Source: Nitrospirota bacterium (GTDB lineage Bacteria > Nitrospirota > Thermodesulfovibrionia > Thermodesulfovibrionales > SM23-35). From it: a stretch of DNA of 64,000 bases. The notes under the pieces were generated by a model. The model saw nothing but the letters and a program-made list of their open reading frames with translations, searched no databases and had not been told where the DNA came from. A program made the position numbers and the translations under genes. The stretch is taken from the NCBI GenBank assembly GCA_040756135.1, contig JBFLZS010000002.1:15949-79948 (forward strand), given 5' to 3'. Shown here piece after piece: positions 5,515-55,452 of the stretch (its first letter is position 1; each line of letters begins with the position of its first letter).

Positions 5515-6717
5515 ATGAGATATTTTCTTGATAGAGACGCTGTCCTTAAATTGATTGAGAAGCCTTCTGTTTATCATATTGCAAAGGATGACCTTTATGA
5601 ACTTGACAGCGATTCCTTTGAATTTCTTAATAATTGTGCATCTGAGAGCGGGTGTAACGTTAAAGAAAATGATTTTATTGATTATTGTCTGAAAGAAGGA
5701 ATATTAACTGTGGATAAGGTCTCGGTAAAACGCCCCCCTCTGATAAAGTCTCCTCATCCCTCCCTTAGGTATCTTGAGCTGCAAATAACGAACAAGTGCA
5801 ATCTGAAATGTAAACACTGTTATATTAATCCCCCCTCACCCCCCTTTAGTAAAGGGGGGAAGGGGGGATTTGAAAAGTTATCCTCCAAACAATCCTTTAG
5901 CGAGCTTTCAATAAACCAGATAAGAGATATTTTGAAAGAATTCGAGGAAATGCAGGGATTAAGAGTTCTTATCACAGGGGGTGAGCCGCTAATTCACAAA
6001 GGATTTAAAGAGATAAATAAAATGCTTCCCGAATTCTTTGTAAGGAAGGTCTTGTTTACAAACGGATTGTTATTAAATAAAAAGGTGCTTAAAAAACTTA
6101 ATGTTAACGAGATCCAGATTAGCGTAGACGGGCTTGAAAATGCACATGACTCACTGAGAGGCAAGGGAACCTTTAAGAGGGCAATAGAGGCTGTTAAACT
6201 TGCTATTGACTCTAATTTTGAGGTCTCTATCTCAACAATGGTTCATTCTAAAAATCTTGGGGAATTTGACGAGATGGAAAGATTATTTAAGGACATGGGA
6301 ATAAAGAACTGGACTGTTGACATCCCATGTATAACCGGGAGGCTACAAGAGAATCCTGAATTTCAGATAAGCCCTGAACAGGGAGGAAAATATCTCAGGT
6401 ATGGTTATGGTAACGGGCTTCATGCAGGCGCATCTGGTTATGCATGCGGGTTATATCTAATGGCTGTGATGGCTGATGGCAGGGTTTCAAAATGTACTTT
6501 TTATTCAGATAGCTCTGTTGGTAGGATTGAAGACGGACTTAGAGAATGCTGGCAGAGGATAAAACCTATAAGGCTTGACGAATTAAAATGTGATTGTAAA
6601 TATATCGAATCATGTAGAGGAGGCTGCAGATACAGGGCACAATTGCTTGGTGACCCTTTTGGCAAAGATCTTTACAAATGCAATTTTTATGGTATAATTA
6701 AAAATACGAATTATTGA
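5515..6717 (+). CDS. Radical SAM/SPASM-domain peptide-maturase-like enzyme with RRE/PqqD-like N-terminal domain
   Basis: It has the CNLKCKHCY (CxxxCxxC) motif, a C-terminal Cys-rich SPASM region (CDCKYIESCRGGCRYRA), and about 85 aa N-terminal with a ..DDLYELDSDSFEFLNNC pattern. It carries an in-frame repeat insertion at 5827-5871. Confidence 0.85.
   Translation: MRYFLDRDAVLKLIEKPSVYHIAKDDLYELDSDSFEFLNNCASESGCNVKENDFIDYCLKEGILTVDKVSVKRPPLIKSPHPSLRYLELQITNKCNLKCKHCYINPPSPPFSKGGKGGFEKLSSKQSFSELSINQIRDILKEFEEMQGLRVLITGGEPLIHKGFKEINKMLPEFFVRKVLFTNGLLLNKKVLKKLNVNEIQISVDGLENAHDSLRGKGTFKRAIEAVKLAIDSNFEVSISTMVHSKNLGEFDEMERLFKDMGIKNWTVDIPCITGRLQENPEFQISPEQGGKYLRYGYGNGLHAGASGYACGLYLMAVMADGRVSKCTFYSDSSVGRIEDGLRECWQRIKPIRLDELKCDCKYIESCRGGCRYRAQLLGDPFGKDLYKCNFYGIIKNTNY
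5827..5871. repeat. G/C palindromic 'KGG' repeat inserted in frame in the rSAM CDS
   Basis: The sequence aatcccccctcacccccctttagtaaaggggggaaggggggatt is a nested hairpin. It encodes NPPSPPFSKGGKGGF immediately after the CxxxCxxC motif. Confidence 0.8.
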
Positions 6718-12159: not shown

Positions 12160-13155
12160 TCAGACCCTCTTCCATCTTCTATGGATCCAGAGCCATTCAG
12201 AGGGATGGGCACGTATGTATTCTTCAATGAAATGTGAGAATTTTTTTGTATCCGCCAGTACAGCACTTTCTATATCGCCATTTTTTGATAATTCTACCTC
12301 TGGATAAATTTTTATCCTGTGGCCTCCATCAGTCCTGTGTATGAATACAGGCAGGACTGCGGCACCTGTCTTTCTTGCTATAAGGGCAGGCATTTTTGTT
12401 GTCCATGCACCCCTGCCTAAAAAATCTATCACATAGCCTTCATCAGGGATAACAGACTGGTCTATCAATATGCCTACAGAGCCATTATTCTTAAGTATTT
12501 GAATTATGGGTTTTAATGCCTTTTGCTTGTAAATTACTCTGTTACCATATTTCTGTCTTACATTTTCAATAAATTTATTAACATAAGGATTATTAATCGG
12601 TCTTGCAACAATAGCAGCATCTCCAAGCTTTACAGATGTAGCGATTGCCATTAACTCCCAGTTTCCACAGTGGCCTGTTAAGAATAAAATTCCTTTACCT
12701 TTAGATTTGGCCTGATCGAAGTTTTCAATGCCCTCGATATCAACGGAACTTATTATTTTTTCACCATACCCGTAATAGATTTTTATGATCTCTACAAGAG
12801 ACCTGCCAAGATTCTTAAAGGTTTCCCTTGCAATACCCTCCGCTGAATAATTAATCCCCCCATGCCCCCCTTTAAAATCCCCCTCTAATCCCCCTTTAAT
12901 AAAGGGGGACTGAGGGGGATTATCCCTTTTCCAAAGGGGGGTGTGGGGGGATTCAGGGGGATTTGACTCCTGACTCTTGAGTAATGACTCTTTGATATTC
13001 TCAATAGCAATCCTTCTCCTGCTTCCCCATAGATAAAAAACCAAAAGGCCGAGTAACTCCCCGGCCTTCATTGACCACTTAAATGGCAGGATTGCTAACG
13101 GTATGGACAGAATTATAAATAGACAAACCTCAAACAGCCATACCGCTTTTTTCAT
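12160..13155 (-). CDS. Lysophospholipid / lipid A (LpxL/HtrB-like) acyltransferase
   Basis: It has an N-terminal TM helix and the HX4(D/E) motif LTGHCGNWELM. The family C-terminus is HPSEWLWIHRRWK. It contains a 110-nt triple repeat insertion. Confidence 0.8.
   Translation of the reverse strand: MKKAVWLFEVCLFIILSIPLAILPFKWSMKAGELLGLLVFYLWGSRRRIAIENIKESLLKSQESNPPESPHTPLWKRDNPPQSPFIKGGLEGDFKGGHGGINYSAEGIARETFKNLGRSLVEIIKIYYGYGEKIISSVDIEGIENFDQAKSKGKGILFLTGHCGNWELMAIATSVKLGDAAIVARPINNPYVNKFIENVRQKYGNRVIYKQKALKPIIQILKNNGSVGILIDQSVIPDEGYVIDFLGRGAWTTKMPALIARKTGAAVLPVFIHRTDGGHRIKIYPEVELSKNGDIESAVLADTKKFSHFIEEYIRAHPSEWLWIHRRWKRV
12853..12963. repeat. Three tandem G/C palindromic 'KGG' units inside the acyltransferase CDS
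   Basis: It spans aatcccccccatgcccccctttaaaatccccctctaatccccctttaataaagggggactgagggggatt...ccaaaggggggtgtggggggattcagggggatt. It is translated in frame as NPPESPHTPLWKRDNPPQSPFIKGGLEGDFKGGHGGI. Confidence 0.8.
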
Positions 13156-15587: not shown

Positions 15588-15646
15588 TTGTTACCTCCAC
15601 AAGAGTTTATTTAGTGTCTGTCCATAAATTGCTATTCAAATAGTCC

Positions 15647-15825
15647 GTCATTCCCCGACTCGATGGGGGGAATCCATGGTTCGACATCCTTCGACAAACT
15701 CAGGATGACATTGTCACTCTGAGCCTGCCGAAGAGTCACCATGACAATGTCACCCTGAGCCTGTCGAAGGGTGGATTGTCCGGTCAAGCGTTCGACTGAG
15801 CTCACGCCGAAGGCCGGACAATGAC
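15647..15825. repeat. Intergenic composite repeat (GTCATTCC...ATGAC type with about 35-nt tandem units)
   Basis: It contains gtcattccccgactcgatggggggaat, then the tandem units gacattgtcactctgagcctgccgaagag and gacaatgtcaccctgagcctgtcgaaggg. The 66-aa track ORF here is repeat-derived. Confidence 0.6.
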
Positions 15826-15930
15826 AAAACATTACTTATAGAAAGACACTATTTAGTTTATAGGGTTTGCTCAGTCCACACAGTTTACACTGTTTTTTTG
15901 TTAGTTTCAACTCGGCCAAGCCCACTTGAA

Positions 15931-18239
15931 TCACGAAACAAAATCAATGGTAATCAGTTTAAGCAGTTCGGGGCTATAGGGCGGGAGTTTTTCTTTTTCC
16001 ATATGTAATTTACCTTCCAGAAATTCTGATATGTCCTTCAGAAGCCTTTTCCAGCTTTTATGATTATTCTTATAATTCCTCCAAACTTCCCTCAGCTTCT
16101 GAAGTCTCTTTTTTGTAAGGCTGACCGATAAGAGCCCTTCTTTTATCCCTTCCCATCTTTTCTCAACTTCTTTATCTTCCGGAAAGTCAAGAAGATACTC
16201 ATCCATCCGAAGATCCATCTCCCTGATAATGCTGGACACAAACTTTTTACTCTTATCACTGGTGAACTCTCCGAGTGTCGGGTCAACTGTTTCTCGTTGC
16301 TCCACTTCTTTATATGTTACCTCTATGTCACGGACTATTTCTGCATTTACTTCATAGACCTTTTCGAAGAAATCAGGTATAACTCCTGTCTCCTCAGGAA
16401 GGCATGCAATGTAATCGAGTATCTTTGTCTTGTTCCTGATCATTTCACCTGTTATAAGGTCATAAAGATACCAGAAGTGAAAATCGTCACCATATTTATA
16501 GTAGAAAAATATCCCCTTTATTCCTCTCTTGAGTCCGCTATGAATTCCGAGGGAATGGATTCCAGTTCTTTTGCGGTCTTTGCCCTTAGATAATCCATTA
16601 ATGGCTGGTAAAATCTTTCACCACCTCCGAAGACCTCCTTCTCTAACTCATCAAAGATTGTCTCGTCCCTTTCTCGAATTCTTCTTATAATTCCGAATAC
16701 CTTTGGATTTACTTCTTCTCCTAAAACAGAGGGTCTTCAGACACATTCTGAAAAATATAATCCAGCGTATCAGCATAGTATGTGAAGATAACAACCTGTC
16801 CTTTTTTACTCAATTCTATAAGTCTTTTCTTCAATTCTTTAAGTTTTGCATCAGCCTCCGGATCTATTGCATCAACCTTTGTGCCCATCTCATTAAAGAT
16901 TTCTATGTCTTTCTCAATATCACCGAGGAGTTCTTCTTTTTTGTAATCTTCGATATTTATATCTTCAAGCTCTTCAAAATACTCCTCGGCAGTTTCTTCA
17001 TCCAGATTAGAAACATATTTATAGTAGGTCTGTTTTGTGAGCAGTTTGCCTTTTTCAAGATAATCCTTTAATCTCTCAAGGAACCTCACATGGTTTGACA
17101 CGCTCTTTCTGAATGCCTCTACACTGCTCTCAAGTCTCTTTAGAAGAATGGTCCTGAAGATACCCTCCAAAGCTATCATCCGTCCCAGAGCCATCTCTTC
17201 AGCCTTGGAAAGTCTTTCTGCTTTCTTGTATTCAAGAATTCGATAATAGGCCATTGTTAACTTTTCACTTATTGTTCGGGAGATATTACTGTAAAGCCCC
17301 TGATATGCTTCATCGAGATGATAATTTATGTTTTCGAGAATCCTTTCCGGGAAGATAATCTTTTCACCGTTTATTTCTGCATCAGGATAATTCTGTTTGA
17401 TATAGTCTCTTGTTCTTCTTATAGATATCTCATTCATAAGATCATTCAAGAGGGTGGGGTCTCCTACCTTATCAATATCCTTAAAAAATCTTAAGATGTC
17501 AGAGATTCCTTCTTTAAGAAAGACCTTCTGGTCTGTACGAGTAAGGAGCATAACCTGCCAGTATAGATCCCATAAGGTATTGTTGATTGGCGTTGCAGTG
17601 AGGAATAGTATATATGGTCTCTCTTTTCCTTCAGTTACATGATCCATGATAAGGGTGAAAAAGTTTTCCCACCGATTGGAGAGAGGATTCCTGAAATTAT
17701 GGCTTTCATCAACAACAATTAAAGAGACCTCTTGAAGTCTTCCGCCAACAGCCTGTCTTGCTTTTTTGAGAAAGTCAGTCGAAGCAAGCTCTTCCTGTGA
17801 TAAAATGCTTTCAGCAAGAATCAGGTCTTTTACAGCATCTCTCCACATGCCTCTCAACTGGGCAGGACAGACCACGAGAAACCTCCTTCTCTTGTAAAAG
17901 CCGAATTCTTCTATTACTCTTTTAGCTATCCAGGTTTTGCCCAATCCCACAGAGTCTGCTACCTTTCTCCTTAGAAAGGTCAAATCCCTCAACCTCTTCC
18001 CTTATCATCTTCAGGAGAACACTTCCAAGTGTTGTTTCACTCCTTATCTCAGGAGCCCTTCCCAGCAGAAGCCGAAAACCTTTTACCCCCTGGATGCTAT
18101 CCTTTATTAAGGCATAGGCCTGGATTTTAAAGAAGGCCGTGGCTATATCAAACTGGGTATTGGGGATTTCCTGAAGAACGCTGTTGAGGAAAGCAGAGAG
18201 TTTTACATCACTGTTGTCTATGATTTTCTTTGGTATCAC
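15931..18239 (-). pseudogene. PLD-like/SNF2-family helicase, degraded (frameshifts plus internal deletions)
   Basis: Fragments lie in at least 4 frames. The first is a PLD-like N-terminus (17922-18239, ..FDIATAFFKIQAYALI..FRLLLG). The second is the SNF2 N-lobe (16721-17992, VADSVGLGKTW, VVDESHNFRN). The LRPYQ region is missing and there is no HELICc motif IV-VI. The tail is split between 16532-16738 (..FGIIRRIRERDETIF..) and 15931-16520 (GIFFYYKYGDDFHFWYLYDL..). Confidence 0.7.
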
Positions 18240-18368
18240 CTTATTAATTCACCTTCAAGTATTACTTTGATATCTTTGACATCTTGATTGCACTTGACAT
18301 CTTGATATCATTATGTCATATTATAAATAGCTAATCAGGCGGCGACTGAGTCATTCGGGCGCCGCTTT

Positions 18369-19121
18369 TCATTTTTGTTTATCCTTAGGAAGAATCACAA
18401 GACCAAATCCCATATAACGCCCCTTCGTATTTCTTCTAAACTTCTTTTCGATAACGTTCCAGTCCTGTTTTGGATTTTTACCAAGGATGCGGCGGCCTAT
18501 GGGAGACACAATGAGATCCGCGATCTGGAGTCCAGCCACATCTTTTCTCTTATTACGGACATGCAAGTCGGAAATATGCCTTCTAACATCAGAAGCTGAT
18601 ATGAAACCTGTACCACTTGTTCTTAGCTCCATCCAGGCAAGGCGAAGCTGGTTGTCAAGAGTCTCATCCCGTGTTTCAGCTATTATATGACCTTGAGAAC
18701 CACCTCCCCTTTGCTGAATCTCAAACACAAATCGTTCTATCAATACTCGTAGCGAAAGCATATAAGGGTCTAAGGCTGCCAGACCATATTGAGCCAAATG
18801 CTCATTTTTTTTAATAACACATGCAATAACCATATAATCAAGCTCGTCCATTAATTGATTTGTCTCAGTGTAAAAACGTTCTCTGAACGCTTTATCAGTC
18901 AGCTTCCGAAATACCCCTCTTCGTCTTACTATGTCAGCAGTATGCAAAATAAAATCGTCTCTGCCGAACAAATCCATTTTATATTTCCTTAGCCTCGGCG
19001 TCAAAATGTTTTCATGATAATCCATATCTATTATGCAGCCGCCGAGAACAAATAAAGGATACTGCGGGTCTATCACATCCAGGCTGTGGTCTCCAGATTC
19101 ATCCAAAAACATTGCAAGCAT
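18369..19121 (-). CDS. DUF3800-domain protein (intact)
   Basis: 250-aa ORF. It has MFLDESGDHSL.. N-terminal and ..IAETRDE.. / LQIADLI motifs, typical of DUF3800. Confidence 0.75.
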   Translation of the reverse strand: MLAMFLDESGDHSLDVIDPQYPLFVLGGCIIDMDYHENILTPRLRKYKMDLFGRDDFILHTADIVRRRGVFRKLTDKAFRERFYTETNQLMDELDYMVIACVIKKNEHLAQYGLAALDPYMLSLRVLIERFVFEIQQRGGGSQGHIIAETRDETLDNQLRLAWMELRTSGTGFISASDVRRHISDLHVRNKRKDVAGLQIADLIVSPIGRRILGKNPKQDWNVIEKKFRRNTKGRYMGFGLVILPKDKQK

Positions 19122-19196
19122 TTACACACTCCTGACCTTTTCAATGCTAAAGTTCAAACTCATATTTCCGCTTTCATCGAGGTATAGATAGAGCAT
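19122..19196 (-). pseudogene. 24-codon relic: DUF3800 5' end fused to an MTase-like 3' end
   Basis: It encodes MLYLYLDESGNMSLNFSIEKVRSV*. Positions 19168-19196 match 20332-20360 at 27 of 29 nt. The last 12 nt plus the stop match 21472-21483, the 3' end of the methyltransferase pseudogene. Confidence 0.5.
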
Positions 19197-19306
19197 TATT
19201 CTTTTTTTCTCTCGCAACTACAACCCTCTCACTGTAGATAAGTGCGGAGTTCATTCGCCGCCTACTACACTTTGTATGATGATTTAATTGCCTCCACTAT
19301 TCATAA

Positions 19307-20056
19307 TTACTGCGGATACATATTTGCAACCTCAACGATCTTCCATTTTCCTCTAATACGGACTATAGCACAACTGATGTCCCATCCTTCCTGGACAAGT
19401 GCAGTGGCCTCTTTTGGCACAGTTATGGGGCCAACAGTGCTCTTGCCGCTATCATTATAAACTTCAAGCCATAATTTCCCGGGCTCAACTTTCTCGATAG
19501 TGTAATGGTCAAAGTCATGGTAATCAGCATCGTCCAATTCATCCGGGTCAAAGTCCACGTGATCTGCAGACTCATAAAGAATATTCCCTGCCTTTTCAGC
19601 CTTGGGAAGGTCTCTGGCTGCAGACACCCCCTCTTCTTCACCCATCGCAGCATCTTCTTCTGAGATATATGCTTTTTCAGCAAGCCATTTTGAGAGCTTC
19701 TTGATTACACTGCCGGCAAGACGCTTGAAATCGCCGCCCGCCATGACTTTGCGTATAAGAAAGTGACTAAGAAACTCTTCGGTGTTTTCAGCAATTTTAT
19801 CCGGACCAAAAAGTTGGCAGAATTCTTTATGTTCTTGACCCTCTGCGTTATAATGCTTTTCAAAAAGGGCAGACTCTGCCTTCGACAGGCTTTGATAGGC
19901 ATAGCCGTTCATACAATCCTTAAACAATTGGATTACGTCTCTATAACCAGATACGGTCTTAGGCTTCAGCTTTAACATCTGCTCAGCCAGAAACTCCTCA
20001 AGCACCTGCTCAATAGTCGGATCGGCAATCTTAGGTAAGTTGATAATCTTTTTCAT
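19307..20056 (-). CDS. Hypothetical protein (intact, 249 aa)
   Basis: It is an uninterrupted ORF. The N-terminus (..EEFLAEQMLKLKPKTVSGYRDVIQLF) weakly recalls integrase SAM-like core-binding domains. It has an acidic linker and a C-terminal beta-rich domain. No confident family assignment. Confidence 0.45.
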   Translation of the reverse strand: MKKIINLPKIADPTIEQVLEEFLAEQMLKLKPKTVSGYRDVIQLFKDCMNGYAYQSLSKAESALFEKHYNAEGQEHKEFCQLFGPDKIAENTEEFLSHFLIRKVMAGGDFKRLAGSVIKKLSKWLAEKAYISEEDAAMGEEEGVSAARDLPKAEKAGNILYESADHVDFDPDELDDADYHDFDHYTIEKVEPGKLWLEVYNDSGKSTVGPITVPKEATALVQEGWDISCAIVRIRGKWKIVEVANMYPQ

Positions 20057-20360
20057 TTATATTTACCTCCGCTTTTCCACGTCTTTTATTGAGAGTAAGG
20101 GCATAAAGCTCGAATGGTACAGACTCAATGCGCCTGTAAAAATATCTTTTGATATCTATAGATTGTTTTGATCCTTTTAATTCAGTTCTTTTTTGTTTCG
20201 GGAATTTATATTGCAAAGTTCGTTTTACAGCCCTGGCTATTTTCTTTCTATTTTCCATGCCCTGCACCAGCATTACAGTAACAGTAAAATACCTCGATGG
20301 CTTCTTTGCAAAGAAATCGAACCCCAAATCTTCGCTTTCATCGAGGTAAAGATAAAGCAT
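20031..20360 (-). pseudogene. DUF3800 N-terminal fragment (109 aa)
   Basis: It begins MLYLYLDESEDLGFDF.. and contains YALTLNKRR. It then terminates, overlapping the next gene by 26 nt. The rest of the domain is absent. Confidence 0.5.
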
Positions 20361-20465
20361 TTATCTCCTATGTTTTATTTAGAATGCTTCTCATAAATAT
20401 CTCTCAAAAACTCATATCCCTTTGAGCCATAGATATTGCATATCCTGTTATTCCATAAAAAAAGA

Positions 20466-20588
20466 TTAAGGTTTTATCTTCCACGCTTTAACCGCTAATT
20501 GAGCATGCTCCTTCTGCCGATTTTCTATTGTTTCTTTTGTCCACTCAGTATGCTTAGATACACTTTGTGTTAACAAAAGATCGGATTT
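20466..20588 (-). pseudogene. C-terminal relic of a GmrSD-type (DUF262-DUF1524) protein
   Basis: Manual translation gives KSDLLLTQSVSKHTEWTKETIENRQKEHAQLAVKAWKIKP*. This is the usual C-terminal tail of DUF1524/GmrSD proteins. It is out of frame and separated from the DUF262 ORF upstream. No HNH/DUF1524 core is present. Confidence 0.5.
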
Positions 20589-20639
20589 TTTATAGTTCTT
20601 TTTCTCTAACTAACCCATGCTTAGAACTCCGGAAATGCC

Positions 20640-21434
20640 TTAGAAACACTGTAAAAGATTTTCGCCTCCATATGTACTTAAAGAAGCCATTGCCATAGTC
20701 CAAAGATTTAGCACTGTCTGAAGGTCTTCTCCTGCTCGACCCAGTAAATAATTTTTTAGAAGATCTGCGATTGAAAGGTCAAGGCCACGATCATTCATAG
20801 TTTCAAAAATAAGAAACGCATTCGCATCATCAGCAACAGTAAAGTAGATTATATAGACAGATTCACTTAAATATTTTGTGAATTCCGCAAGCCAGTTAAT
20901 TTGATCCTTTATTCCCTCCAATTTTTTAGATAGCCAGTTAGATATGGACTGTCGTGCATTCCAAAGGCGAAAGTGGGATTCAGGAGCTCCGCTCTCCGGT
21001 TTCTTTGCTTCTTCTGTCAAGATGGATCGGAAATAAGGATCATCGTTTTGGTTCAGCTTGAGTTGTGGCCGCTCTATACCCTCCGAGATGTCGAATATTG
21101 ATAGGTATTGACTACGTATGGCTTGAGCTCTTTTTCTGTCTGCAATATTGTCAAATTTATCTGCAATTCCTGCAAGCAATAACGAAACTACTGCAAGGCG
21201 TTGTTGGCCATCTAAGACTTTAGGCCGTACCCTATCGGATGCCGCAATTATTACCAGACTGCCTAAGAAGTAGTCCTCCTTATTCCTATTAAAAGCATCT
21301 CCAAGATCATCCAAGAGTTCTACGACCTCTTCAGTCCACTCGAACGGTCTTTGGTGTACAGGAACCTCTAATCTTGTGCTACTTAGAACTGATGCTATCC
21401 CCTTTATTTCAATTGACGTGTTGGGTTTTGGCAT
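20640..21434 (-). CDS. DUF262 (ParB-like nuclease, GmrSD N-terminal) domain protein, probably truncated
   Basis: It has the motifs VPVHQRPFEW and VLDGQQRL. I prefer the start at the ATG at 21434 (MPKPNTS). It ends without a DUF1524 domain. Confidence 0.7.
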   Translation of the reverse strand: MPKPNTSIEIKGIASVLSSTRLEVPVHQRPFEWTEEVVELLDDLGDAFNRNKEDYFLGSLVIIAASDRVRPKVLDGQQRLAVVSLLLAGIADKFDNIADRKRAQAIRSQYLSIFDISEGIERPQLKLNQNDDPYFRSILTEEAKKPESGAPESHFRLWNARQSISNWLSKKLEGIKDQINWLAEFTKYLSESVYIIYFTVADDANAFLIFETMNDRGLDLSIADLLKNYLLGRAGEDLQTVLNLWTMAMASLSTYGGENLLQCF

Positions 21435-22386
21435 ATGTAACCCCCCTTTTTGTAAATTGCATCCCTCATATTTACACACTCCTTGCCTTCTCAAGGCGGT
21501 TCTTGACGAGCTCGCAGACGGTCCAATAGACCTCGTTCCTTTCGTCTTCTGTCAGGCCGAGGATGTCGAAGACAATATCATGAGGGCCTTGCGGTCAGCG
21601 AGAGGATTAGGTTTCTGCTCACGGATTGGACGGGCGGGATTGATGCCACATTCCTCGAAAATAGATTTAAGGTCGCGTTTTTCTAAGAGCAAGTGATTGG
21701 TCTTTACTAAGGAAGGATCGAGCGTCAAAAGATTATTTACCTCATAAACCATTAAACTTTTCGCTCCCTCTCCTAAGCCCCCTCTTGATAATATTTCAGA
21801 TATAAGGCCAAACAATGTGGAATTTAACAGAGTTCTGTAATCTTACATCGCCATTTGCATAATATAGTCTGCAGTCACATAGCATATGATTATCAGACAA
21901 GAAGGTACCGAGCCTGTCGTTAGTTTCTTTTACCCAAAACATATTGCCCTTTAAATCAGGACAATCCCACCACCTTTGTCGTCCTATGCAGGTCGGTCTC
22001 TTATGAAATCCCTGTTTTTCTCCCCATTCAATATACCTCAGTGCATTTGTTCCTTTAATATCCTTCTTTTCGTCATGACACATAAAGATTTTGAATTTCA
22101 GATCTTTTGGTCTTATCCGAATCCCCTTACATTCTCTCGGGCTTTTTATTACAGGTTTTAGAAATTCATCTTCTATTTTCCATTCCTTGATACCTTTGTT
22201 ATCAAGGTAAAAAAAATTCATTTGCGCCTGAAGTAATACCACGCCTTACCTCTGCAATATCCCCAAGTCTGACGAGCTTGCCTTTTCCCTTCTCAAGGAT
22301 CGTAAAGAATATATCCGGCGCTCTAAGGTATTTCCCGCCCCACTTTTGAACATGACAAAGCGGGCTGAGTCTTGAAGGGCAGGCCA

Positions 22387-22422
22387 AATCCCCCCTTACC
22401 CCCTTTGCTAAAGGGGGGATTT
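22387..22422. repeat. 'KGG' palindromic repeat inside the methyltransferase pseudogene
   Basis: The sequence is aatccccccttaccccctttgctaaaggggggattt. It reads as IPPLAKGVRGDL. Confidence 0.75.
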
Positions 22423-23113
22423 TTGAGATATCTCCAAACATCTCAGTCTGTTCTTGCCTTTTTAGCGTTTCAAGAGACTGAATTTCTTTTTGAAGGGTTA
22501 CAATCCTGTCATCCAATATCTCGCCGAATATCCTGATCTCTTCCTGAAGAAGGGACTTGTCGCTTTTGAATTTGGCAGTAGGGTCATTGTTATAGTATTT
22601 CTCTTTCTCTGTCTTAAGGGCTAAAAGTTTTCTTTTAAGAGAAGGAGAAAGCCGACTATCTCTTATATGGAGACTCACTCCGCCAACCTCCTGTACGAGG
22701 GAATCACCTACACGTAACCTTAGGTTAAGGTTGGGAAGGAGGGGAAAGAGTTTTCTTTGTTCGTAAGGGATATCTTCTTCAATGATGAGCTGTAACCAGA
22801 GCCTTAACTCTGCCGAGTGTGTTGCCCAGGGCATGACATCCACACCATAAAGGGAATTTCCTATGATTTTTTTCTTTAGTTCGAACTCTGTCATTTCCCT
22901 CTGGATATGGCGATAGGTGAGCCTATAAAGTTCCACCAGCACACGAAGCATCCCCACAAGGAAAGCACCGCTACCACAAGCTGGATCCACCACTGTAAGG
23001 TTATCAAGAACCTCTTCCAGACGATACCAAAGGTTCTTTTTTGTAATGTAATCCTCAACGTCTTTTTTATCTTCATCAAATAGCAGTCTATATATCCATT
23101 CCTTTGAAAGCTC

Positions 23114-23208
23114 AAATCCCCCCTCGCCCCCCTTTGCTAAAGGGGGGATATCGGGAGGAGACTTTTCTAAAGGGGGAAACACACCCCTATCCCCTCTTGA
23201 TAGAGGGG
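23114..23208. repeat. Composite 'KGG' palindromic repeats inside the methyltransferase pseudogene
   Basis: It spans aaatcccccctcgcccccctttgctaaaggggggatatcggg...cccctatcccctcttgatagagggg. It reads as SPLSRGDRGVFPPLEKSPPDIPPLAKGGEGGFE. Confidence 0.75.
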
Positions 23209-24585
23209 AACTTAAATGGTTGCTGAGGTACTCCGCCAGAGACCTCCTGCACATAAAGTCAACCTCGATTGTCGGAGTATAGAAGATGCCGAGATCCTGC
23301 CTCTCGTATATCTCCTCTGCTACATTGGAGAGGGATTCATAAACATAACCTATCATCTGTGGGTCTACCGCAACCTCAACATCCAAAGGAAGGTCTTCAC
23401 GAATGGTAAAGTTATATTTCTCAAAGAAGTTAAGAACCTTTTCGAAGAGGCTATCGTTTATATGAAACGGTAGTTCGTCCAGTTCGTTTCTCTGAAACAG
23501 GCCGCCGTTAAGGTAGGGGGTTACGGCAAGGATCTTCTTAATATCCTGAGAGTGATAAGGAGGATGACTGTATTTATTATTGAACGCCTCAAGAAAGAGT
23601 ATTCTCAACCAATTTTCATAAAAGGTATTATCTTTGGCATCGCCCTTTCTTTTTTCTTCTTTATATCGTTCCCAGTACCACTTGATAAACTTCGGGGCAT
23701 CATTAAGCCATCTCTTCCTTGCAATAAAGTAAAGGAACATAAGCCTGTTAAGGAATTGCTGGGACAGTTCATGGGCATTCTTGACTGGGATCTTCTGTTT
23801 CTCAAAGGTTCTCCTTAGCTCAAAAAATGCATCTGTATAATCCTCAAAGAACTCATCTGTAACCTTCTCTACACTAAAGGCATCCTTCCACCTCTTCCAG
23901 ATGTCCCGCCAGTTCTCTTCATCTCCAGTAAGGGCAATGTTTGTGATAGTAAGAAGGTCTGTATGATAGGGATGTTCCCTGTCGAAGATAAGCTTTGTCA
24001 GCTTAAGTTTATGCTTGCCCTCTTCAACACGTTCGAATTCAGGGAAGACAAAGGTATATTCCTTGTAATCAGAGGTAAGGAGGAGAAGAAATCGGAGATA
24101 TTTGTCTGAGAAGCGCTTCGTGAGATAGCGGACAAAGGGGATTGAAAGGTTCTTGACTACTATGAGGAATATCTGTAGCTTACCGTCATAATTAAAGACT
24201 GTGTAGATATCTTTAACTTTCTCCTTTTCCTCTTTTGCAAACTCGAATTCTTCAATCTTTCTCTTATAGGACGGATCGAGGATCTTGTCTTTTTGATATC
24301 CAAGCCCACGAAAAAGCTCATAAATCTTTTCAGGAGAATCTGCCTCTGGGATGAAATTTTGAACATATTTTGTTATGTCCATGTCTTACCTTTATCATTT
24401 ATCCAAAAGAAGAAGAATATATCAATATATTTTGATTTAGAACAGATACATTTAAGCAATATTTTGCACGACGGAATTAGTTTACCATCTCAACTGCAGA
24501 ATATCAAAATGAAATAAGTTGAGCAACGCTGGAGGGGGCCCATTAAAATGCCCTTTGTATCAACTTAGTAAATTGTGTAAACTTT

Positions 24586-47199: not shown

Positions 47200-47288
47200 A
47201 TTCCCCCTTAGCGAAGGGGGATTAAGGGGATTGTGCCTTTTTCAGCCTTTTTACAACCCTCTCGCCCCCTTTTTTAAGGGGGAATTTC
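47200..47288. repeat. Intergenic 'KGG'-type palindromic repeats
   Basis: It contains attcccccttagcgaagggggattaagggga ... ccctctcgcccccttttttaagggggaattt. Confidence 0.7.
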
Positions 47289-50090: not shown

Positions 50091-50136
50091 AATCCCCCTT
50101 CACCCCCCCTTTTCTAAAGGGGGGAGTGGGGGGATT
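50091..50136. repeat. 'KGG' palindromic repeat at the 5' end/leader of the cNMP-binding gene
   Basis: The sequence is aatcccccttcaccccccttttctaaaggggggagtggggggatt. Confidence 0.75.
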
Positions 50137-55302: not shown

Positions 55303-55452
55303 TATTAACGGTCTCAAAATAGAATTCATATTATTCGGAAAATCTCCCCTCGCCCCTCTTTGCCAAAGAGGGGTATGATTCCTCCCTTTGGCAAAGGGAG
55401 GTTAGGAGGGATTTTATAAATCAATGTGCTTACTATTATGAGACTGTTAATA
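55303..55452. mobile_element. MITE-like composite repeat, copy 2
   Basis: The TIRs are tattaacggtctca (55303-55316) and tgagactgttaata (55439-55452), matching at 13 of 14 positions. Two inner G/C hairpins are present. It is near-identical to 1774-1954 apart from one missing hairpin unit. Confidence 0.55.

What the first reader, a model, noticed from the sequence alone, without database searches (positions are those of the whole stretch)
15931..24382. Defence-island 'graveyard': every recognisable restriction/defence gene is broken while DUF3800 and an unknown gene stay intact
Between the Lon-like protease and xerD lie several degraded genes. There is a PLD-SNF2 helicase in at least 4 frame fragments with no HELICc domain. 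There is a GmrSD-like gene reduced to its DUF262 half plus a detached C-terminal tail. There is an Eco57I/PglX-like methyltransferase with at least 3 frameshifts and two repeat insertions. There are also two DUF3800 5' fragments. The 250-aa DUF3800 gene (18369-19121) and a 249-aa unknown gene (19307-20056) are uninterrupted. The pattern suggests an old island undergoing decay, with possible retention of, or recent replacement by, the intact pair.
Basis: partly seen in the sequence, partly recalled or inferred. Interest (0 to 1): 0.55.

Follow-up and report, generated by a model that had tools for sequence, protein, structure and literature searches.

The report
Dead restriction island with two surviving passengers
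An 8.7-kb foreign defence island has lost the catalytic core of every restriction-type gene through real deletions, while two unrelated mobile passenger genes stay intact, one of them a DUF3800 nuclease-like gene that carries its own small antisense RNA gene not found in Rfam.

Summary
Window ~24575-15912 (minus strand) is a lineage-specific insertion between xerD and a host Lon-like gene; sister genomes have these two genes adjacent. The backbone is a two-gene restriction-like operon: a type IIG/Eco57I-family methyltransferase and an HKD(PLD)-SNF2 helicase. It is 75-78% identical in DNA to a largely intact Nitrospinae island.

Against that reference, four clean deletions remove the methyltransferase NPPY motif, the PLD HKD motif and helicase motifs IV-VI. 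There are also at least 4 frameshifts. An embedded GmrSD/HEC-06 gene lacks its nuclease half. These lesions are not homopolymer errors.

The "intact pair" is not a pair. The two genes never co-occur elsewhere (0/86 and 0/95 loci).
- The 249-aa gene is a widespread, unannotated mobile family. It was exchanged recently (dS 0.36, against >1.2 for the backbone).
- The DUF3800 gene is often found inside restriction operons. A sister island is eroded to stubs around the same intact gene.
- In 84/87 loci this DUF3800 subfamily is followed by a covarying hairpin with its own promoter on the opposite strand. This looks like a ~50-nt antisense RNA and matches no Rfam family.

Island decay is ordinary. 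The DUF3800-RNA module is the interesting part.

The parts
15912..24575 (-). Whole inserted island, lying between the xerD stop (24586) and the native upstream region of the Lon-like gene
   Evidence: Homology to sister loci L182 and L183 stops at window 24576 and resumes at 15911. In those loci xerD and the Lon-like gene are 97-354 nt apart.
21472..24382 (-). Pseudogene of a type IIG/Eco57I-MmeI-family N6-adenine methyltransferase (reference 1260 aa)
   Evidence: Reference aa 1-634 are kept, including motif I (DPACGSGAF). Reference aa 635-831, which hold NPPY at 694, are deleted at 22431/22418. Aa 832-860 are out of frame. Aa 861-961 are deleted at 22346/22345. Frameshifts lie at ~22215 (T8 run), ~21830 and ~21580.
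22390..22420 (.). GC-rich palindromic repeat unit at the right edge of methyltransferase deletion 1
   Evidence: The same unit is present at this site in the intact reference.
23119..23212 (.). Three in-frame GC-rich palindromic repeat units inside the methyltransferase N-part
   Evidence: One unit sits at the same site in the intact L008 methyltransferase, so it does not disrupt the gene.
20466..21434 (-). GmrSD/HEC-06-like (DUF262+DUF1524) pseudogene: N-half, frameshifted piece and detached tail; nuclease half missing
   Evidence: Pfam GmrSD_N E=1e-29. PADLOC HEC-06 model positions 7-263, 260-284 and 525-557 of 558 are matched.
20082..20360 (-). 5' fragment (93 codons) of a second-type DUF3800 gene, truncated where the 249-aa gene begins
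   Evidence: Pfam DUF3800 positions 1-71 of 149. Its upstream region plus start is also found downstream of the 250-aa gene in L001.
19307..20056 (-). Intact 249-aa gene of an unannotated, widespread family (helical N-domain plus OB-like C-terminal barrel)
   Evidence: There are 462 homologues, found in many phyla. No Pfam, NCBIfam, PADLOC, PHROG or PDB sequence match. AlphaFold2 pLDDT is 92.8, and no Foldseek hit has E<0.01. dN/dS is 0.13-0.20.
19122..19196 (-). 24-codon stub ORF (MLYLYLDESGNMSLNFSIEKVRSV*): a DUF3800 type-2 start fused to a copy of the methyltransferase's last 8 codons, ending directly before the DUF3800 ATG
   Evidence: A 28-nt repeat (19147-19120 versus 21497-21470) is 86% identical. 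The same kind of stub is in L096/L097.
18369..19121 (-). Intact DUF3800 gene (250 aa; the subfamily I call t1)
   Evidence: Pfam 59.9 bits against a cut-off of 21. It shares all 54 invariant columns of a 31-sequence alignment. dN/dS is 0.049 against L096 at dS 1.24. AlphaFold2 pLDDT is 91.
18294..18322 (+). Sigma-70-type promoter on the strand antisense to DUF3800 (TTGACA, 17 nt with TG, CATATT)
   Evidence: A promoter at this position is conserved in 54/77 related loci, against 7% of shuffles and 5/77 on the sense strand.
18329..18378 (+). Predicted ~50-nt antisense RNA: 12-bp hairpin (18337-18367) with conserved inner stem and loop, then a U-run that overlaps the last DUF3800 codons
   Evidence: Covariance model R1 scores 32.2 bits, E=2e-7, and this is the only significant hit in the window. 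97.3% of cells are paired and 9/12 pairs covary. Folding energy is -17.9 kcal/mol against -12.1 for the sense strand.
15931..18239 (-). Pseudogene of an HKD(PLD)-SNF2 helicase (reference ~1047 aa) in four frame fragments
   Evidence: Reference aa 89-252, which hold the HKD motif at 119, are deleted at 17974/17963. Reference aa ~667-784, holding helicase motifs IV-VI, are deleted at 16722/16721. A frameshift lies at ~16530. The best PADLOC model for the intact reference is C3a139 'HKD+Snf2'.

Best explanation
The segment is a horizontally acquired island of about 8.66 kb, inserted between the host genes xerD and a LonC-type protease gene.

Its backbone is a two-gene restriction-modification-like operon. 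One gene is a type IIG/Eco57I-family methyltransferase that carries its own target-recognition region. The other is a nuclease-motor protein, a PLD/HKD nuclease fused to an SNF2 ATPase. By analogy with type III and type ISP enzymes and with DISARM DrmMI/DrmD, the methyltransferase would mark self DNA and the helicase-nuclease would attack unmarked DNA. This step is inferred.

The space between the two genes carries passenger genes. In this copy the operon and a GmrSD-like passenger are dead. Deletions removed the methyltransferase catalytic motif, the PLD catalytic motif, the helicase C-lobe and the GmrSD nuclease half, and frameshifts were added on top. This is shown.

Two passengers remain intact because they are autonomous mobile genes that do not need the operon. 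They are under purifying selection across lineages (shown). Their autonomy is inferred.

(a) DUF3800. This is a putative RNase-H-like nuclease. It travels as a compact module with a convergent ~50-nt antisense RNA gene whose terminator overlaps the end of the DUF3800 coding region. It is often found embedded in restriction operons. Most likely the RNA either restrains the protein or is its cofactor, in a toxin-antitoxin-like or abortive-infection arrangement. That would make the module hard to lose and able to outlive its host operon. This is inferred.

(b) The 249-aa gene. It has a helical domain plus an OB-like barrel and probably binds nucleic acid. It was exchanged between islands more recently than the backbone (shown by dS). 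Its function is unknown.
For: Insertion:
- Sister loci have xerD and the Lon-like gene adjacent, with the same flanking synteny.

Intact orthologue and lesion map:
- blastn gives 75-88% identity to L001/L008 from the methyltransferase start to the helicase stop.
- tblastn and frame mapping place each lesion.
- NPPY (aa 694) and HKD (aa 119) of the reference fall inside the deleted intervals.
- The deletion junctions are clean, with 0-12 nt of filler.
- For GmrSD, HEC-06 model positions 285-524 are absent.

Past selection on the backbone:
- dN/dS is 0.046-0.067 for the surviving methyltransferase and helicase segments. Inactivation is therefore recent relative to their divergence.

The passengers are independent of each other:
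- They co-occur in none of 86 DUF3800 loci and none of 95 loci of the 249-aa family.
- The 249-aa gene has dS 0.36, against >1.2 or saturated for the backbone.
- It sits in varied contexts: PRiA4_ORF3, Uma2, toxin-antitoxin pairs, SNF2 helicases.

DUF3800 is a frequent resident of restriction operons:
- An hsdR-like gene lies nearby in 21 of 86 loci. It starts within 400 nt downstream, on the same strand, in 13 of 54 distinct contexts with at least 1 kb of flank. hsdM and hsdS lie upstream.
- In L098 and L175 it lies between an intact PLD-SNF2 helicase and an Eco57I-type methyltransferase that are only ~28% identical to the ones here.
- L096 keeps the methyltransferase tail 'RSV*', an intact DUF3800 (88% identical) and a 36-aa remnant of the helicase C-terminus.

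The antisense RNA:
- The motif is present in 84/87 loci.
- 96-97% of cells are paired, and 8/8 outer pairs (9/12 overall) show compensatory changes. Controls with slid partners give 34-55%.
- The mismatches on the sense strand are C-A, which are G-U pairs on the antisense strand. One U-G pair is invariant.
- A promoter is conserved at a fixed position on the antisense strand.
- The antisense strand folds better than the sense strand.
- The model finds no hit in 1.17 Mb of unrelated loci, and no Rfam family matches.
- The literature reports DUF3800 as RNase-H-like and linked to 11 RNA motifs of unknown role (PMC10910872, PMC7736814, PMC5737381).
Against: - No expression or phenotype data exist. 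The RNA, its promoter and any toxicity are predictions.
- The RNase-H-like fold of this subfamily was not confirmed here: the best Foldseek PDB hit has E=0.5.
- About 14 lesions are spread over 8.7 kb, and the two intact genes cover ~17% of it. Escaping damage by chance alone has a probability of about 7% (my estimate), so intactness in this lineage does not prove selection here. The dN/dS values are averages over long branches that include other lineages.
- The window comes from a metagenome-assembled genome. Single-base frameshifts such as the T8 run could be errors, and a chimeric assembly of strain variants cannot be excluded without reads.
- The island may have been acquired already broken.
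- The hairpin plus U-run could be only a terminator for antisense transcription.
Confidence: 0.72

Rival explanations
1. The broken genes are artefacts of sequencing or metagenome assembly, such as homopolymer errors or chimeric joins. The real genome would carry an intact defence system.
For: The window is from a metagenome-assembled genome. One frameshift lies in a T8 run at ~22215. The Nitrospinae copies of the island also differ by single-base frameshifts between assemblies.
Against: Four deletions of 302-613 nt have clean junctions and remove conserved catalytic motifs. The GmrSD gene lacks ~240 model positions. Independent, further-eroded versions of the same island exist in L096 and L016. 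This kind of decay therefore happens in nature.
Confidence: 0.05
2. DUF3800 and the 249-aa gene form a functional two-gene defence or toxin-immunity pair that replaced the old system.
For: They are adjacent, on the same strand and both intact. The upstream region and start of a DUF3800 type-2 gene lie next to the 250-aa gene in the Nitrospinae island too.
Against: None of 86 DUF3800-t1 loci holds a 249-aa homologue. None of 95 loci of the 249-aa family holds a DUF3800 coding region at E<1e-4. Their synonymous divergences to relatives differ several-fold. The DUF3800 sequences next to the 249-aa gene are truncated stubs of a different DUF3800 type.
Confidence: 0.04
3. The two genes are intact only by chance and recency. 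The whole island is neutral junk, and these two small targets have simply not been hit yet.
For: The island is young relative to the host split. The chance of no lesion falling in 17% of the island, given ~14 lesions, is about 7% (my estimate).
Against: Both families show strong long-term purifying selection and keep every family-invariant residue. In L096 the same DUF3800 is the sole survivor of a far more eroded island. In L016 the 249-aa gene survives beside a 56-aa methyltransferase remnant. The survival pattern is therefore repeated independently.
Confidence: 0.15
4. The conserved element after DUF3800 is not an RNA gene. It would be a DNA-level site (recombination or mobilisation signal of the DUF3800 cassette) or a plain bidirectional terminator.
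For: DUF3800 is clearly mobile as a tight unit that includes this element. The element ends in a U-run like an intrinsic terminator. No recombinase-independent explanation of the gene's mobility is known.
Against: The strand asymmetry (G-U pairs allowed on one strand only, one U-G pair invariant) points to a folded single strand of defined polarity. A sigma-70-type promoter is conserved 7-14 nt upstream on that same strand. The inner stem and loop are nearly invariant, which a mere terminator does not need. A single-stranded DNA site of that polarity is not excluded.
Confidence: 0.2

Closest known systems
Type IIG/IIL restriction-modification enzymes of the Eco57I/MmeI/Cj0031 family, paired with a PLD+SNF-helicase CDS (noted in PMC9881135, Table 3; PADLOC candidate model C3a139 'HKD+Snf2')
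   Same: The domain content and adjacency match. The intact reference methyltransferase hits REase_MTase_IIG models (E=1e-49). The helicase hits 'HKD+Snf2' over nearly its full length (E=8e-54).
   Different: As far as my searches show, the pairing is not an experimentally characterised, named system. Here both genes are pseudogenes, and passenger genes lie between them.
DISARM class 1 (DrmD SNF2 helicase, DrmMI methyltransferase, DrmA, DrmB, DrmC PLD) and BREX (PglX with BrxHII)
   Same: There are partial profile hits to DrmD, DrmMI, PglX and BrxHII. The logic of methyltransferase plus SNF2 motor plus PLD nuclease is shared.
   Different: No DrmA/DrmB (DUF1998), PglZ or BrxC is present. All hits score far below the NCBIfam cut-offs (for example 90.8 against 610 bits). 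The neighbouring Lon-like gene is a host gene that sister genomes without the island also have, so it is not BrxL.
PrrC/EcoprrI and RloC: effector genes embedded in type I restriction operons (PMC1484252, PMC3458546)
   Same: A nuclease-type gene is embedded between the modification/specificity genes and the restriction gene of an R-M operon. The DUF3800 subfamily shows this layout in 21 of 86 loci and sits between methyltransferase and helicase here.
   Different: There is no sequence or domain relation to PrrC. DUF3800 also occurs outside R-M operons and survives when the operon is gone, whereas PrrC is reported to be always R-M linked. No guarding function has been shown for DUF3800.
DUF3800-associated RNA motifs DUF3800-I to -XI (Weinberg et al. 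2017, PMC5737381; Rfam RF02969, RF02968 and others)
   Same: A conserved structured element lies next to DUF3800 genes, can be on the opposite strand, and ends in an intrinsic-terminator-like feature.
   Different: No Rfam model matches this element, at gathering score or at E up to 10. Here the strand, a dedicated promoter and the overlap with the 3' end of the coding region could be defined.
Type I toxin-antitoxin pairs with convergent, 3'-overlapping antisense RNA (e.g. Bacillus txpA/RatA and bsrG/SR4; from my own knowledge)
   Same: A short antisense RNA with its own promoter is transcribed towards the protein gene and overlaps its 3' end.
   Different: The protein is a 250-aa soluble, nuclease-like protein, not a small membrane peptide. 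Neither toxicity nor RNA-RNA control has been shown.
GmrSD / HEC-06 type IV restriction enzymes (DUF262 + DUF1524)
   Same: The N-terminal DUF262 domain with the DGQQR motif and the extreme C-terminal tail match HEC-06 models.
   Different: The DUF1524 nuclease half is missing and the reading frame is broken, so this is a remnant and not a working member.

Membership tests
Eco57I/MmeI-type (type IIG, PglX/DrmMI-like) N6-adenine DNA methyltransferase | SAM-binding motif I (DPACGSGAF) | tested here: met
   'VVDPACGSGAFL' lies in ORF 24382-22202. Pfam MmeI_Mtase matches residues 450-531.
Eco57I/MmeI-type (type IIG, PglX/DrmMI-like) N6-adenine DNA methyltransferase | Catalytic motif IV (NPPY) | tested here: not met
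   NPPY is at aa 694 of the intact reference. Reference aa 635-831 are deleted in the window, and there is no Pfam Eco57I (PF07669) hit.
Eco57I/MmeI-type (type IIG, PglX/DrmMI-like) N6-adenine DNA methyltransferase | Continuous reading frame of ~1100-1260 aa including the C-terminal M_Eco57I_C/target-recognition part | tested here: not met
   There are two deletions and three frameshifts. M_Eco57I_C is matched only weakly, in a separate 148-aa ORF (22.9 bits against a cut-off of 27).
HKD(PLD)-SNF2 helicase (PADLOC C3a139; DrmD-like) | PLD HxK(x)4D catalytic motif | tested here: not met
   The reference motif 'HGKAYIFD' at aa 119 lies in the deleted interval aa 89-252. There is no PLDc hit.
HKD(PLD)-SNF2 helicase (PADLOC C3a139; DrmD-like) | SNF2 N-lobe (Walker A GxGKT, DExH) | tested here: met
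   'SVGLGKTWIA' and 'VVDESHNFRN' lie in ORF 17992-16721. Pfam SNF2-rel_dom and ResIII hits are above their cut-offs.
HKD(PLD)-SNF2 helicase (PADLOC C3a139; DrmD-like) | Helicase C-lobe (Helicase_C, motifs IV-VI) | tested here: not met
   Reference aa ~667-784, including 'STDVLSEGMNLQ' and 'QRAGRIDRIG', are deleted at 16722/16721. There is no Helicase_C hit.
GmrSD / HEC-06 (DUF262+DUF1524) | DUF262 (GmrSD_N) domain with DGQQR | tested here: met
   PF03235 scores 104.5 bits. 'LDGQQRL' is present.
GmrSD / HEC-06 (DUF262+DUF1524) | DUF1524 (HNH-type) nuclease domain | tested here: not met
   HEC-06 model positions 285-524 have no counterpart. Only positions 7-284 and 525-557 are matched.
DUF3800 (PF12686) | Pfam domain above gathering score, with the N-terminal DE motif and C-terminal QxxD motif (motifs as described in PMC7736814) | tested here: met
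   59.9 bits against a cut-off of 21. 'FLDESGDH' and 'LQIADL' are present and are invariant or near-invariant in alignment A2.
DUF3800 (PF12686) | RNase-H-like fold (claimed in PMC10910872 and PMC7736814) | tested here: inconclusive
   The model is confident (pLDDT 91.1), but the best Foldseek PDB hit has E=0.5. RNase H and RuvC appear only among weak hits.
DUF3800 (PF12686) | Neighbouring conserved RNA motif of the published DUF3800-I..XI set | tested here: not met
   No Rfam hit in the window or in 26 related loci. A different conserved hairpin is present instead.
BREX | PglZ, BrxC and (type 1) the BrxL Lon-like protease as part of the system | tested here: not met
   The island has no such ORFs. 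The adjacent Lon-like gene is LonC-type and is conserved next to xerD in sister genomes that lack the island.
DISARM class 1 | DrmA helicase plus DrmB (DUF1998) alongside DrmD and DrmMI | tested here: not met
   There is no DUF1998 or DrmA-type ORF. DrmD and DrmMI are matched only partially and far below the NCBIfam cut-off (90.8 against 610 bits).
Type I toxin-antitoxin (as a working analogy for DUF3800 plus its RNA) | Antisense RNA with its own promoter overlapping the toxin mRNA | tested here: met
   Met in silico only: promoter 18294-18322(+), hairpin and U-run 18337-18378(+) overlapping the DUF3800 stop, conserved across loci.
Type I toxin-antitoxin (as a working analogy for DUF3800 plus its RNA) | Small hydrophobic toxin peptide, with toxicity relieved by the RNA | tested here: not met
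   The protein is a 250-aa soluble alpha/beta protein. Toxicity cannot be tested with these tools.

The most novel reading that the evidence does not exclude
The 250-aa DUF3800 subfamily and its convergent ~50-nt antisense RNA would form a previously undescribed self-contained protein-RNA module. It would act as a toxin-antitoxin-like or abortive-infection unit in which the RNA silences, or is the cofactor of, an RNase-H-like nuclease. The module would ride inside restriction-modification operons, possibly as a back-up that fires when the restriction enzyme is disabled, as PrrC does. Because it is addictive or independently useful, it would outlive the operon. That would explain why it is the last intact gene in this island and in L096.
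Probability: 0.3. Interest if true: 0.75.

Novelty: new variant of a known kind. Interest (0 to 1): 0.5.

Why it matters
A decaying defence island is expected biology. This locus is useful because three stages of the same island are available for comparison:
- nearly intact in Nitrospinae;
- gutted here;
- reduced to stubs in L096 and L016.

The series shows which parts are dispensable and which persist. The persisting DUF3800 gene leads to a concrete, testable handle on a question open since 2017: why DUF3800 genes are accompanied by structured RNAs. For this subfamily, the strand of the RNA, its promoter, its terminator and its overlap with the 3' end of the gene can all be read from the sequence. 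The frequent position of the gene inside restriction operons suggests a role linked to restriction.

The 249-aa family is widespread and mobile, has a confident predicted structure and has no annotation in any library searched. It is a candidate for defence-island screens.

Tried and rejected
- Exact-sequence look-ups of the two intact proteins and of P0001 found no contig, so the source contig itself could not be fetched.
- 249-aa protein: Pfam, NCBIfam, PADLOC, PHROGs, a PDB sequence profile search and Foldseek (PDB and viral libraries) gave no significant match. The only hints are weak OB-fold and MRG-like similarities. The single fused homologue (P0090) adds only DUF7713.
- Idea that the 249-aa gene is a core third component of the methyltransferase-helicase system: rejected. 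Outside the L001/L016/window island lineage it sits in unrelated contexts.
- Idea that the 28-nt repeat 'AGGAGTGTGTAAAT...' is a recombination site: it is the 3' end of the methyltransferase gene ('..ARSV*'), duplicated in front of DUF3800. It also occurs in L001, L016 and L096. I read it as a scar of the original methyltransferase-DUF3800 junction. How it arose is not resolved.
- Idea that the DUF3800 stub ORF is a general leader peptide: rejected. It occurs only in the window and in L096/L097, out of 82 loci with enough upstream sequence. Unexplained: all 5 differences in the first 10 codons are synonymous.
- The LmuA hit of the 170-aa ORF and the mir-4529 hit are spurious. The first is the helicase C-terminus; the second is a repeat hairpin.
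- Known Rfam DUF3800 motifs: none found.
- A possible 9-nt direct repeat at the island ends, AGTTGA(T/A)AC at 24565-24557 and 15912-15904, is ambiguous, because the left copy may be native sequence.
- Integron-cassette reading of the passengers: not pursued. No attC-like sites or integron integrase were seen, and xerD is the conserved host gene.

Full report
**What is there.** All genes of the finding lie on the minus strand. In reading order after xerD (25470-24586) they are:
- fragments of an Eco57I/MmeI-type methyltransferase (24382-21472);
- the DUF262 half of a GmrSD-like gene (21434-20640), with further pieces down to 20466;
- a 93-codon DUF3800 5' fragment (20360-~20082);
- an intact 249-aa gene (20056-19307);
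- a 24-codon stub ORF (19196-19122);
- an intact 250-aa DUF3800 gene (19121-18369);
- four fragments of a PLD-SNF2 helicase (18239-15931);
- a Lon-like gene (15587-13152).

The source is a Nitrospirota metagenome-assembled genome: P0001 is 100% identical to the 249-aa protein.

**The island is an insertion.** The closest relatives of the Lon-like protein (92% and 89% identical) come from contigs with the same gene order on both sides: ATP synthase, a response regulator, a methyltransferase, a cytochrome and xerD upstream, and the Lon-like gene and a lipid-A acyltransferase gene downstream. In these contigs xerD is followed by the Lon-like gene after only 97-354 nt. Homology to the window stops at 24576 and resumes at 15911. 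The island is therefore window ~24575-15912, about 8.66 kb. Host synonymous divergence to the nearest sister is 0.31-0.45. By parsimony the island was gained after that split, so it is not 'old' on the host's time scale. The Lon-like gene is a conserved host LonC-type gene and not a BREX BrxL.

**An intact counterpart exists, and it shows what was lost.** A homologue of the 249-aa protein (85% identical) led to a Nitrospinae island, represented by loci L001-L008. Its order is a 1260-aa methyltransferase, DUF559, the 250-aa gene, a DUF433/DUF5615 toxin-antitoxin pair, and a PLD-SNF2 helicase. At the DNA level that island aligns with the window from the methyltransferase start codon to the helicase stop codon, at 75-88% identity.

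Using L008 as the methyltransferase reference, and the L001 helicase after removing one extra C, I mapped the lesions:

| Gene | Lesion | Window position | What is lost |
|---|---|---|---|
| Methyltransferase | deletion of ref aa 635-831 (613 nt) | 22431/22418 | NPPY motif (aa 694) |
| Methyltransferase | out-of-frame segment, ref aa 832-860 | 22418-22346 | - |
| Methyltransferase | deletion of ref aa 861-961 (302 nt) | 22346/22345 | - |
| Methyltransferase | frameshifts | ~22215 (T8 run), ~21830, ~21580 | - |
| Helicase | deletion of ref aa 89-252 | 17974/17963 | HKD motif (aa 119) |
| Helicase | deletion of ref aa ~667-784 (354 nt) | 16722/16721 | helicase motifs IV-VI |
| Helicase | frameshift | ~16530 | - |

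All junctions are clean, with 0-12 nt of filler. The GmrSD-like gene matches PADLOC HEC-06 positions 7-263, then 260-284 in another frame, then 525-557 in a detached 36-codon ORF. The nuclease half (285-524) is missing. Every catalytic centre of the three restriction-type genes has therefore been physically removed, and this cannot be a homopolymer artefact. The surviving methyltransferase and helicase segments still show dN/dS of 0.046-0.067 against the reference. Most of their divergence thus accumulated under selection, and inactivation is comparatively recent.

**The repeat 'insertions' are not lesions.** The GC-rich palindromic unit (CCCCCTTT..AAAGGGGG, read as 'PPLAKGGEGGF') occurs about 15 times in the window. 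One unit sits at the same place in the intact 1260-aa reference methyltransferase. Units also sit in frame in the host lipid-A acyltransferase gene in the window and in both sister genomes. They are tolerated in frame. One unit does mark the right edge of methyltransferase deletion 1.

**What the backbone is.** The intact reference proteins best match the PADLOC models 'REase_MTase_IIG' and 'C3a139 HKD+Snf2'. They match DrmD, DrmMI, PglX and BrxHII only partially (NCBIfam scores are far below the cut-offs). A paper on programmed inversions lists type IIG genes with an adjacent PLD+SNF-helicase gene (PMC9881135). I found no named, characterised system of this kind. Functionally it resembles a type III or ISP-like split between a methyltransferase with a target-recognition part and a motor-nuclease; this is inference. 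It is not BREX or DISARM, because their defining partners are absent.

**The intact genes are not a pair.** I fetched 95 loci around homologues of the 249-aa protein and 86 loci around homologues of the DUF3800 protein. No DUF3800 locus contains a 249-aa homologue. No locus of the 249-aa family contains a DUF3800 coding region at E<1e-4. The only link is that short DUF3800 type-2 start stubs lie beside the 249/250-aa gene in the window and in L001.

**The 249-aa gene.**
- The family has more than 460 members of uniform length, in many phyla, at 37-100% identity.
- It has no match in Pfam, NCBIfam, PADLOC, PHROGs or PDB sequences.
- The AlphaFold2 model is confident (pLDDT 92.8). It shows a helical N-domain and a five-stranded OB-like C-terminal barrel. 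No Foldseek hit in PDB or BFVD has E below 0.01.
- Neighbours vary: PRiA4_ORF3 in about nine independent loci, Uma2, MNT/HepT, DUF559, SNF2 helicases.
- Its synonymous divergence from the Nitrospinae copy is 0.36, with dN/dS 0.20. The flanking methyltransferase and helicase have dS above 1.2 or saturated. It was therefore exchanged much more recently than the backbone.
- In L016 the same gene (86% identical) sits next to a 56-aa remnant of the methyltransferase C-terminus, with no methyltransferase and no helicase.

**The DUF3800 gene.** The subfamily, which I call t1, has more than 1300 members of 245-255 aa. The window copy shares all 54 invariant columns of a 31-sequence alignment.

Context:
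- An hsdR-like gene lies nearby in 21 of 86 loci, usually directly downstream on the same strand, with hsdM and hsdS upstream.
- In L098 and L175 the gene lies between an intact PLD-SNF2 helicase and an Eco57I-type methyltransferase that are only ~28% identical to those of this island.
- In L099 it lies between an AbiJ-like gene and a ResIII helicase.

The nearest relative, L096 (88% identical; dS 1.24, dN/dS 0.049), is flanked upstream by a stub ending in the methyltransferase tail 'RSV*'. Downstream it has a 36-aa remnant of this island's helicase C-terminus. That locus is a sister island eroded down to its DUF3800 gene. In the window, a 28-nt copy of the methyltransferase 3' end lies directly before the DUF3800 start codon. 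This suggests the original order was methyltransferase, DUF3800, helicase, and that the GmrSD-to-249-aa block was inserted later. That order of events is inferred.

**A small antisense RNA gene accompanies DUF3800.** In 84 of 87 loci the stop codon is followed by a conserved element of about 30 nt. Read on the strand opposite to DUF3800, it forms a 12-bp hairpin: 8 outer pairs, a 1x1 internal loop and 4 inner pairs.
- 97.3% of cells are paired and 9 of 12 pairs show compensatory changes. Controls with slid partners give 36-53%.
- About a quarter of the outer-stem cells are G-U pairs, and one inner U-G pair is invariant. These would be C-A mismatches on the sense strand, so the antisense strand is the folded one.
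- The antisense strand also folds better: -17.9 against -12.1 kcal/mol in the window, and -17.9 against -5.7 in L149.
- The hairpin is followed by a U-run that overlaps the last lysine codons of DUF3800.
- A sigma-70-type promoter precedes it at a fixed distance. In 54 of 77 loci the promoter scores at least 9/12, with the -10 box ending mostly 7-14 nt before the hairpin. The comparison values are 7% of shuffles and 5 of 77 loci on the sense strand.
- In the window the promoter is at 18294-18322 and the RNA at ~18329-18378.
- A covariance model finds this as the only significant hit in the 64-kb window (E=2e-7) and finds nothing in 1.17 Mb of unrelated loci.
- No Rfam family matches, including the published DUF3800 motifs.

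The literature describes DUF3800 as RNase-H-like (PMC10910872, PMC7736814). It also reports DUF3800 next to eleven different RNA motifs of unknown role, on either strand and often with terminators (PMC5737381). My own fold search was inconclusive.

**Interpretation.** Three things are shown. The island is foreign. Its restriction-type genes are irreversibly dead. The two intact genes belong to independent, mobile families under strong selection, and each also survives in other eroded copies of this island.

The following is inferred. DUF3800 and its antisense RNA form an autonomous module, either toxin-antitoxin-like or an abortive-infection effector in the manner of PrrC in EcoprrI (PMC1484252), though without homology to PrrC. 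Its persistence would then be due to addiction or independent benefit. Survival by chance in this particular lineage cannot be excluded; I estimate that probability at about 7%.

**Verdict.** The decay itself is ordinary. The added value is the three-stage comparative series and the DUF3800 antisense-RNA module.

Noticed in passing
window 12873-12944 (inside the lipid-A acyltransferase gene 12160-13155); also 1824-1900, 5839-5859, 37269-37286, 47203-47282, 50103-50124, 55353-55399: A GC-rich palindromic repeat family (CCCCCTTT-N4-AAAGGGGG) inserts in frame into coding sequences, giving 'PP(L/F)xKGGxGG' peptides. The host acyltransferase carries one unit in both sister genomes and an expanded array (~21 extra codons) in the window. 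The intact Nitrospinae methyltransferase carries several units. This resembles the Rickettsia palindromic elements (my own knowledge).
   Followed up: partly
window 15615-15850 (hairpin arms 15685-15716 and 15742-15773): A ~235-nt element with 32-nt inverted arms lies between the island end and the Lon-like gene. It is absent from that spot in sister L182, and a related copy lies elsewhere in L182. It produces the spurious ORF 15632-15832 and a spurious mir-4529 hit. It looks like a MITE-type (miniature transposable element) repeat.
   Followed up: partly
L001-L008 (Nitrospinae island copies): The otherwise intact reference island is polymorphic for single-base frameshifts between metagenome assemblies. 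The methyltransferase is 1260/1249 aa in some copies and split 498+755 in others. The helicase is split 660+406 by an extra C in ACCCCTC in L001 but reads through in L005. This could be early decay, phase variation or assembly error.
   Followed up: partly
window 19196-19122 and L096 5680-5733: The stub ORF in front of DUF3800 (MLYLYLDESG...RSV*, with its stop abutting the ATG) is shared by the window and L096 although dS between them is ~1.2. All 5 nucleotide differences in its first 10 codons are synonymous. Either it is translated and constrained (translational coupling or promoter donation), or both stubs derive from different functional DUF3800 type-2 alleles.
   Followed up: partly
window 19265-19235 (minus strand, downstream of the 249-aa gene): The sequence GGCGGCGAATGAACTCCGC resembles a degraded copy of the DUF3800 3' hairpin (GGCGGCGCCCGAATGACTCAGTCGCCGC). 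It may be a relic of a DUF3800 gene once present there. Model R1 did not score it.
   Followed up: no
L062, L071, L074 (one Actinomycetota MAG, MFD04944.bin.1.178): Three separate copies of the 249-aa family occur in a single genome, which fits a mobile multi-copy element.
   Followed up: no
L149 8402-11962 and related loci: The hsdR gene downstream of DUF3800 in several type I operons contains an inserted DUF559 (Vsr-like endonuclease) domain between its helicase lobes. DUF559 is also a free-standing passenger gene in the L001/L016 islands.
   Followed up: no
window 24565-24557 and 15912-15904: AGTTGA(T/A)AC occurs at both ends of the island. It could be a target-site duplication, but the left copy may simply be native intergenic sequence.
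   Followed up: partly
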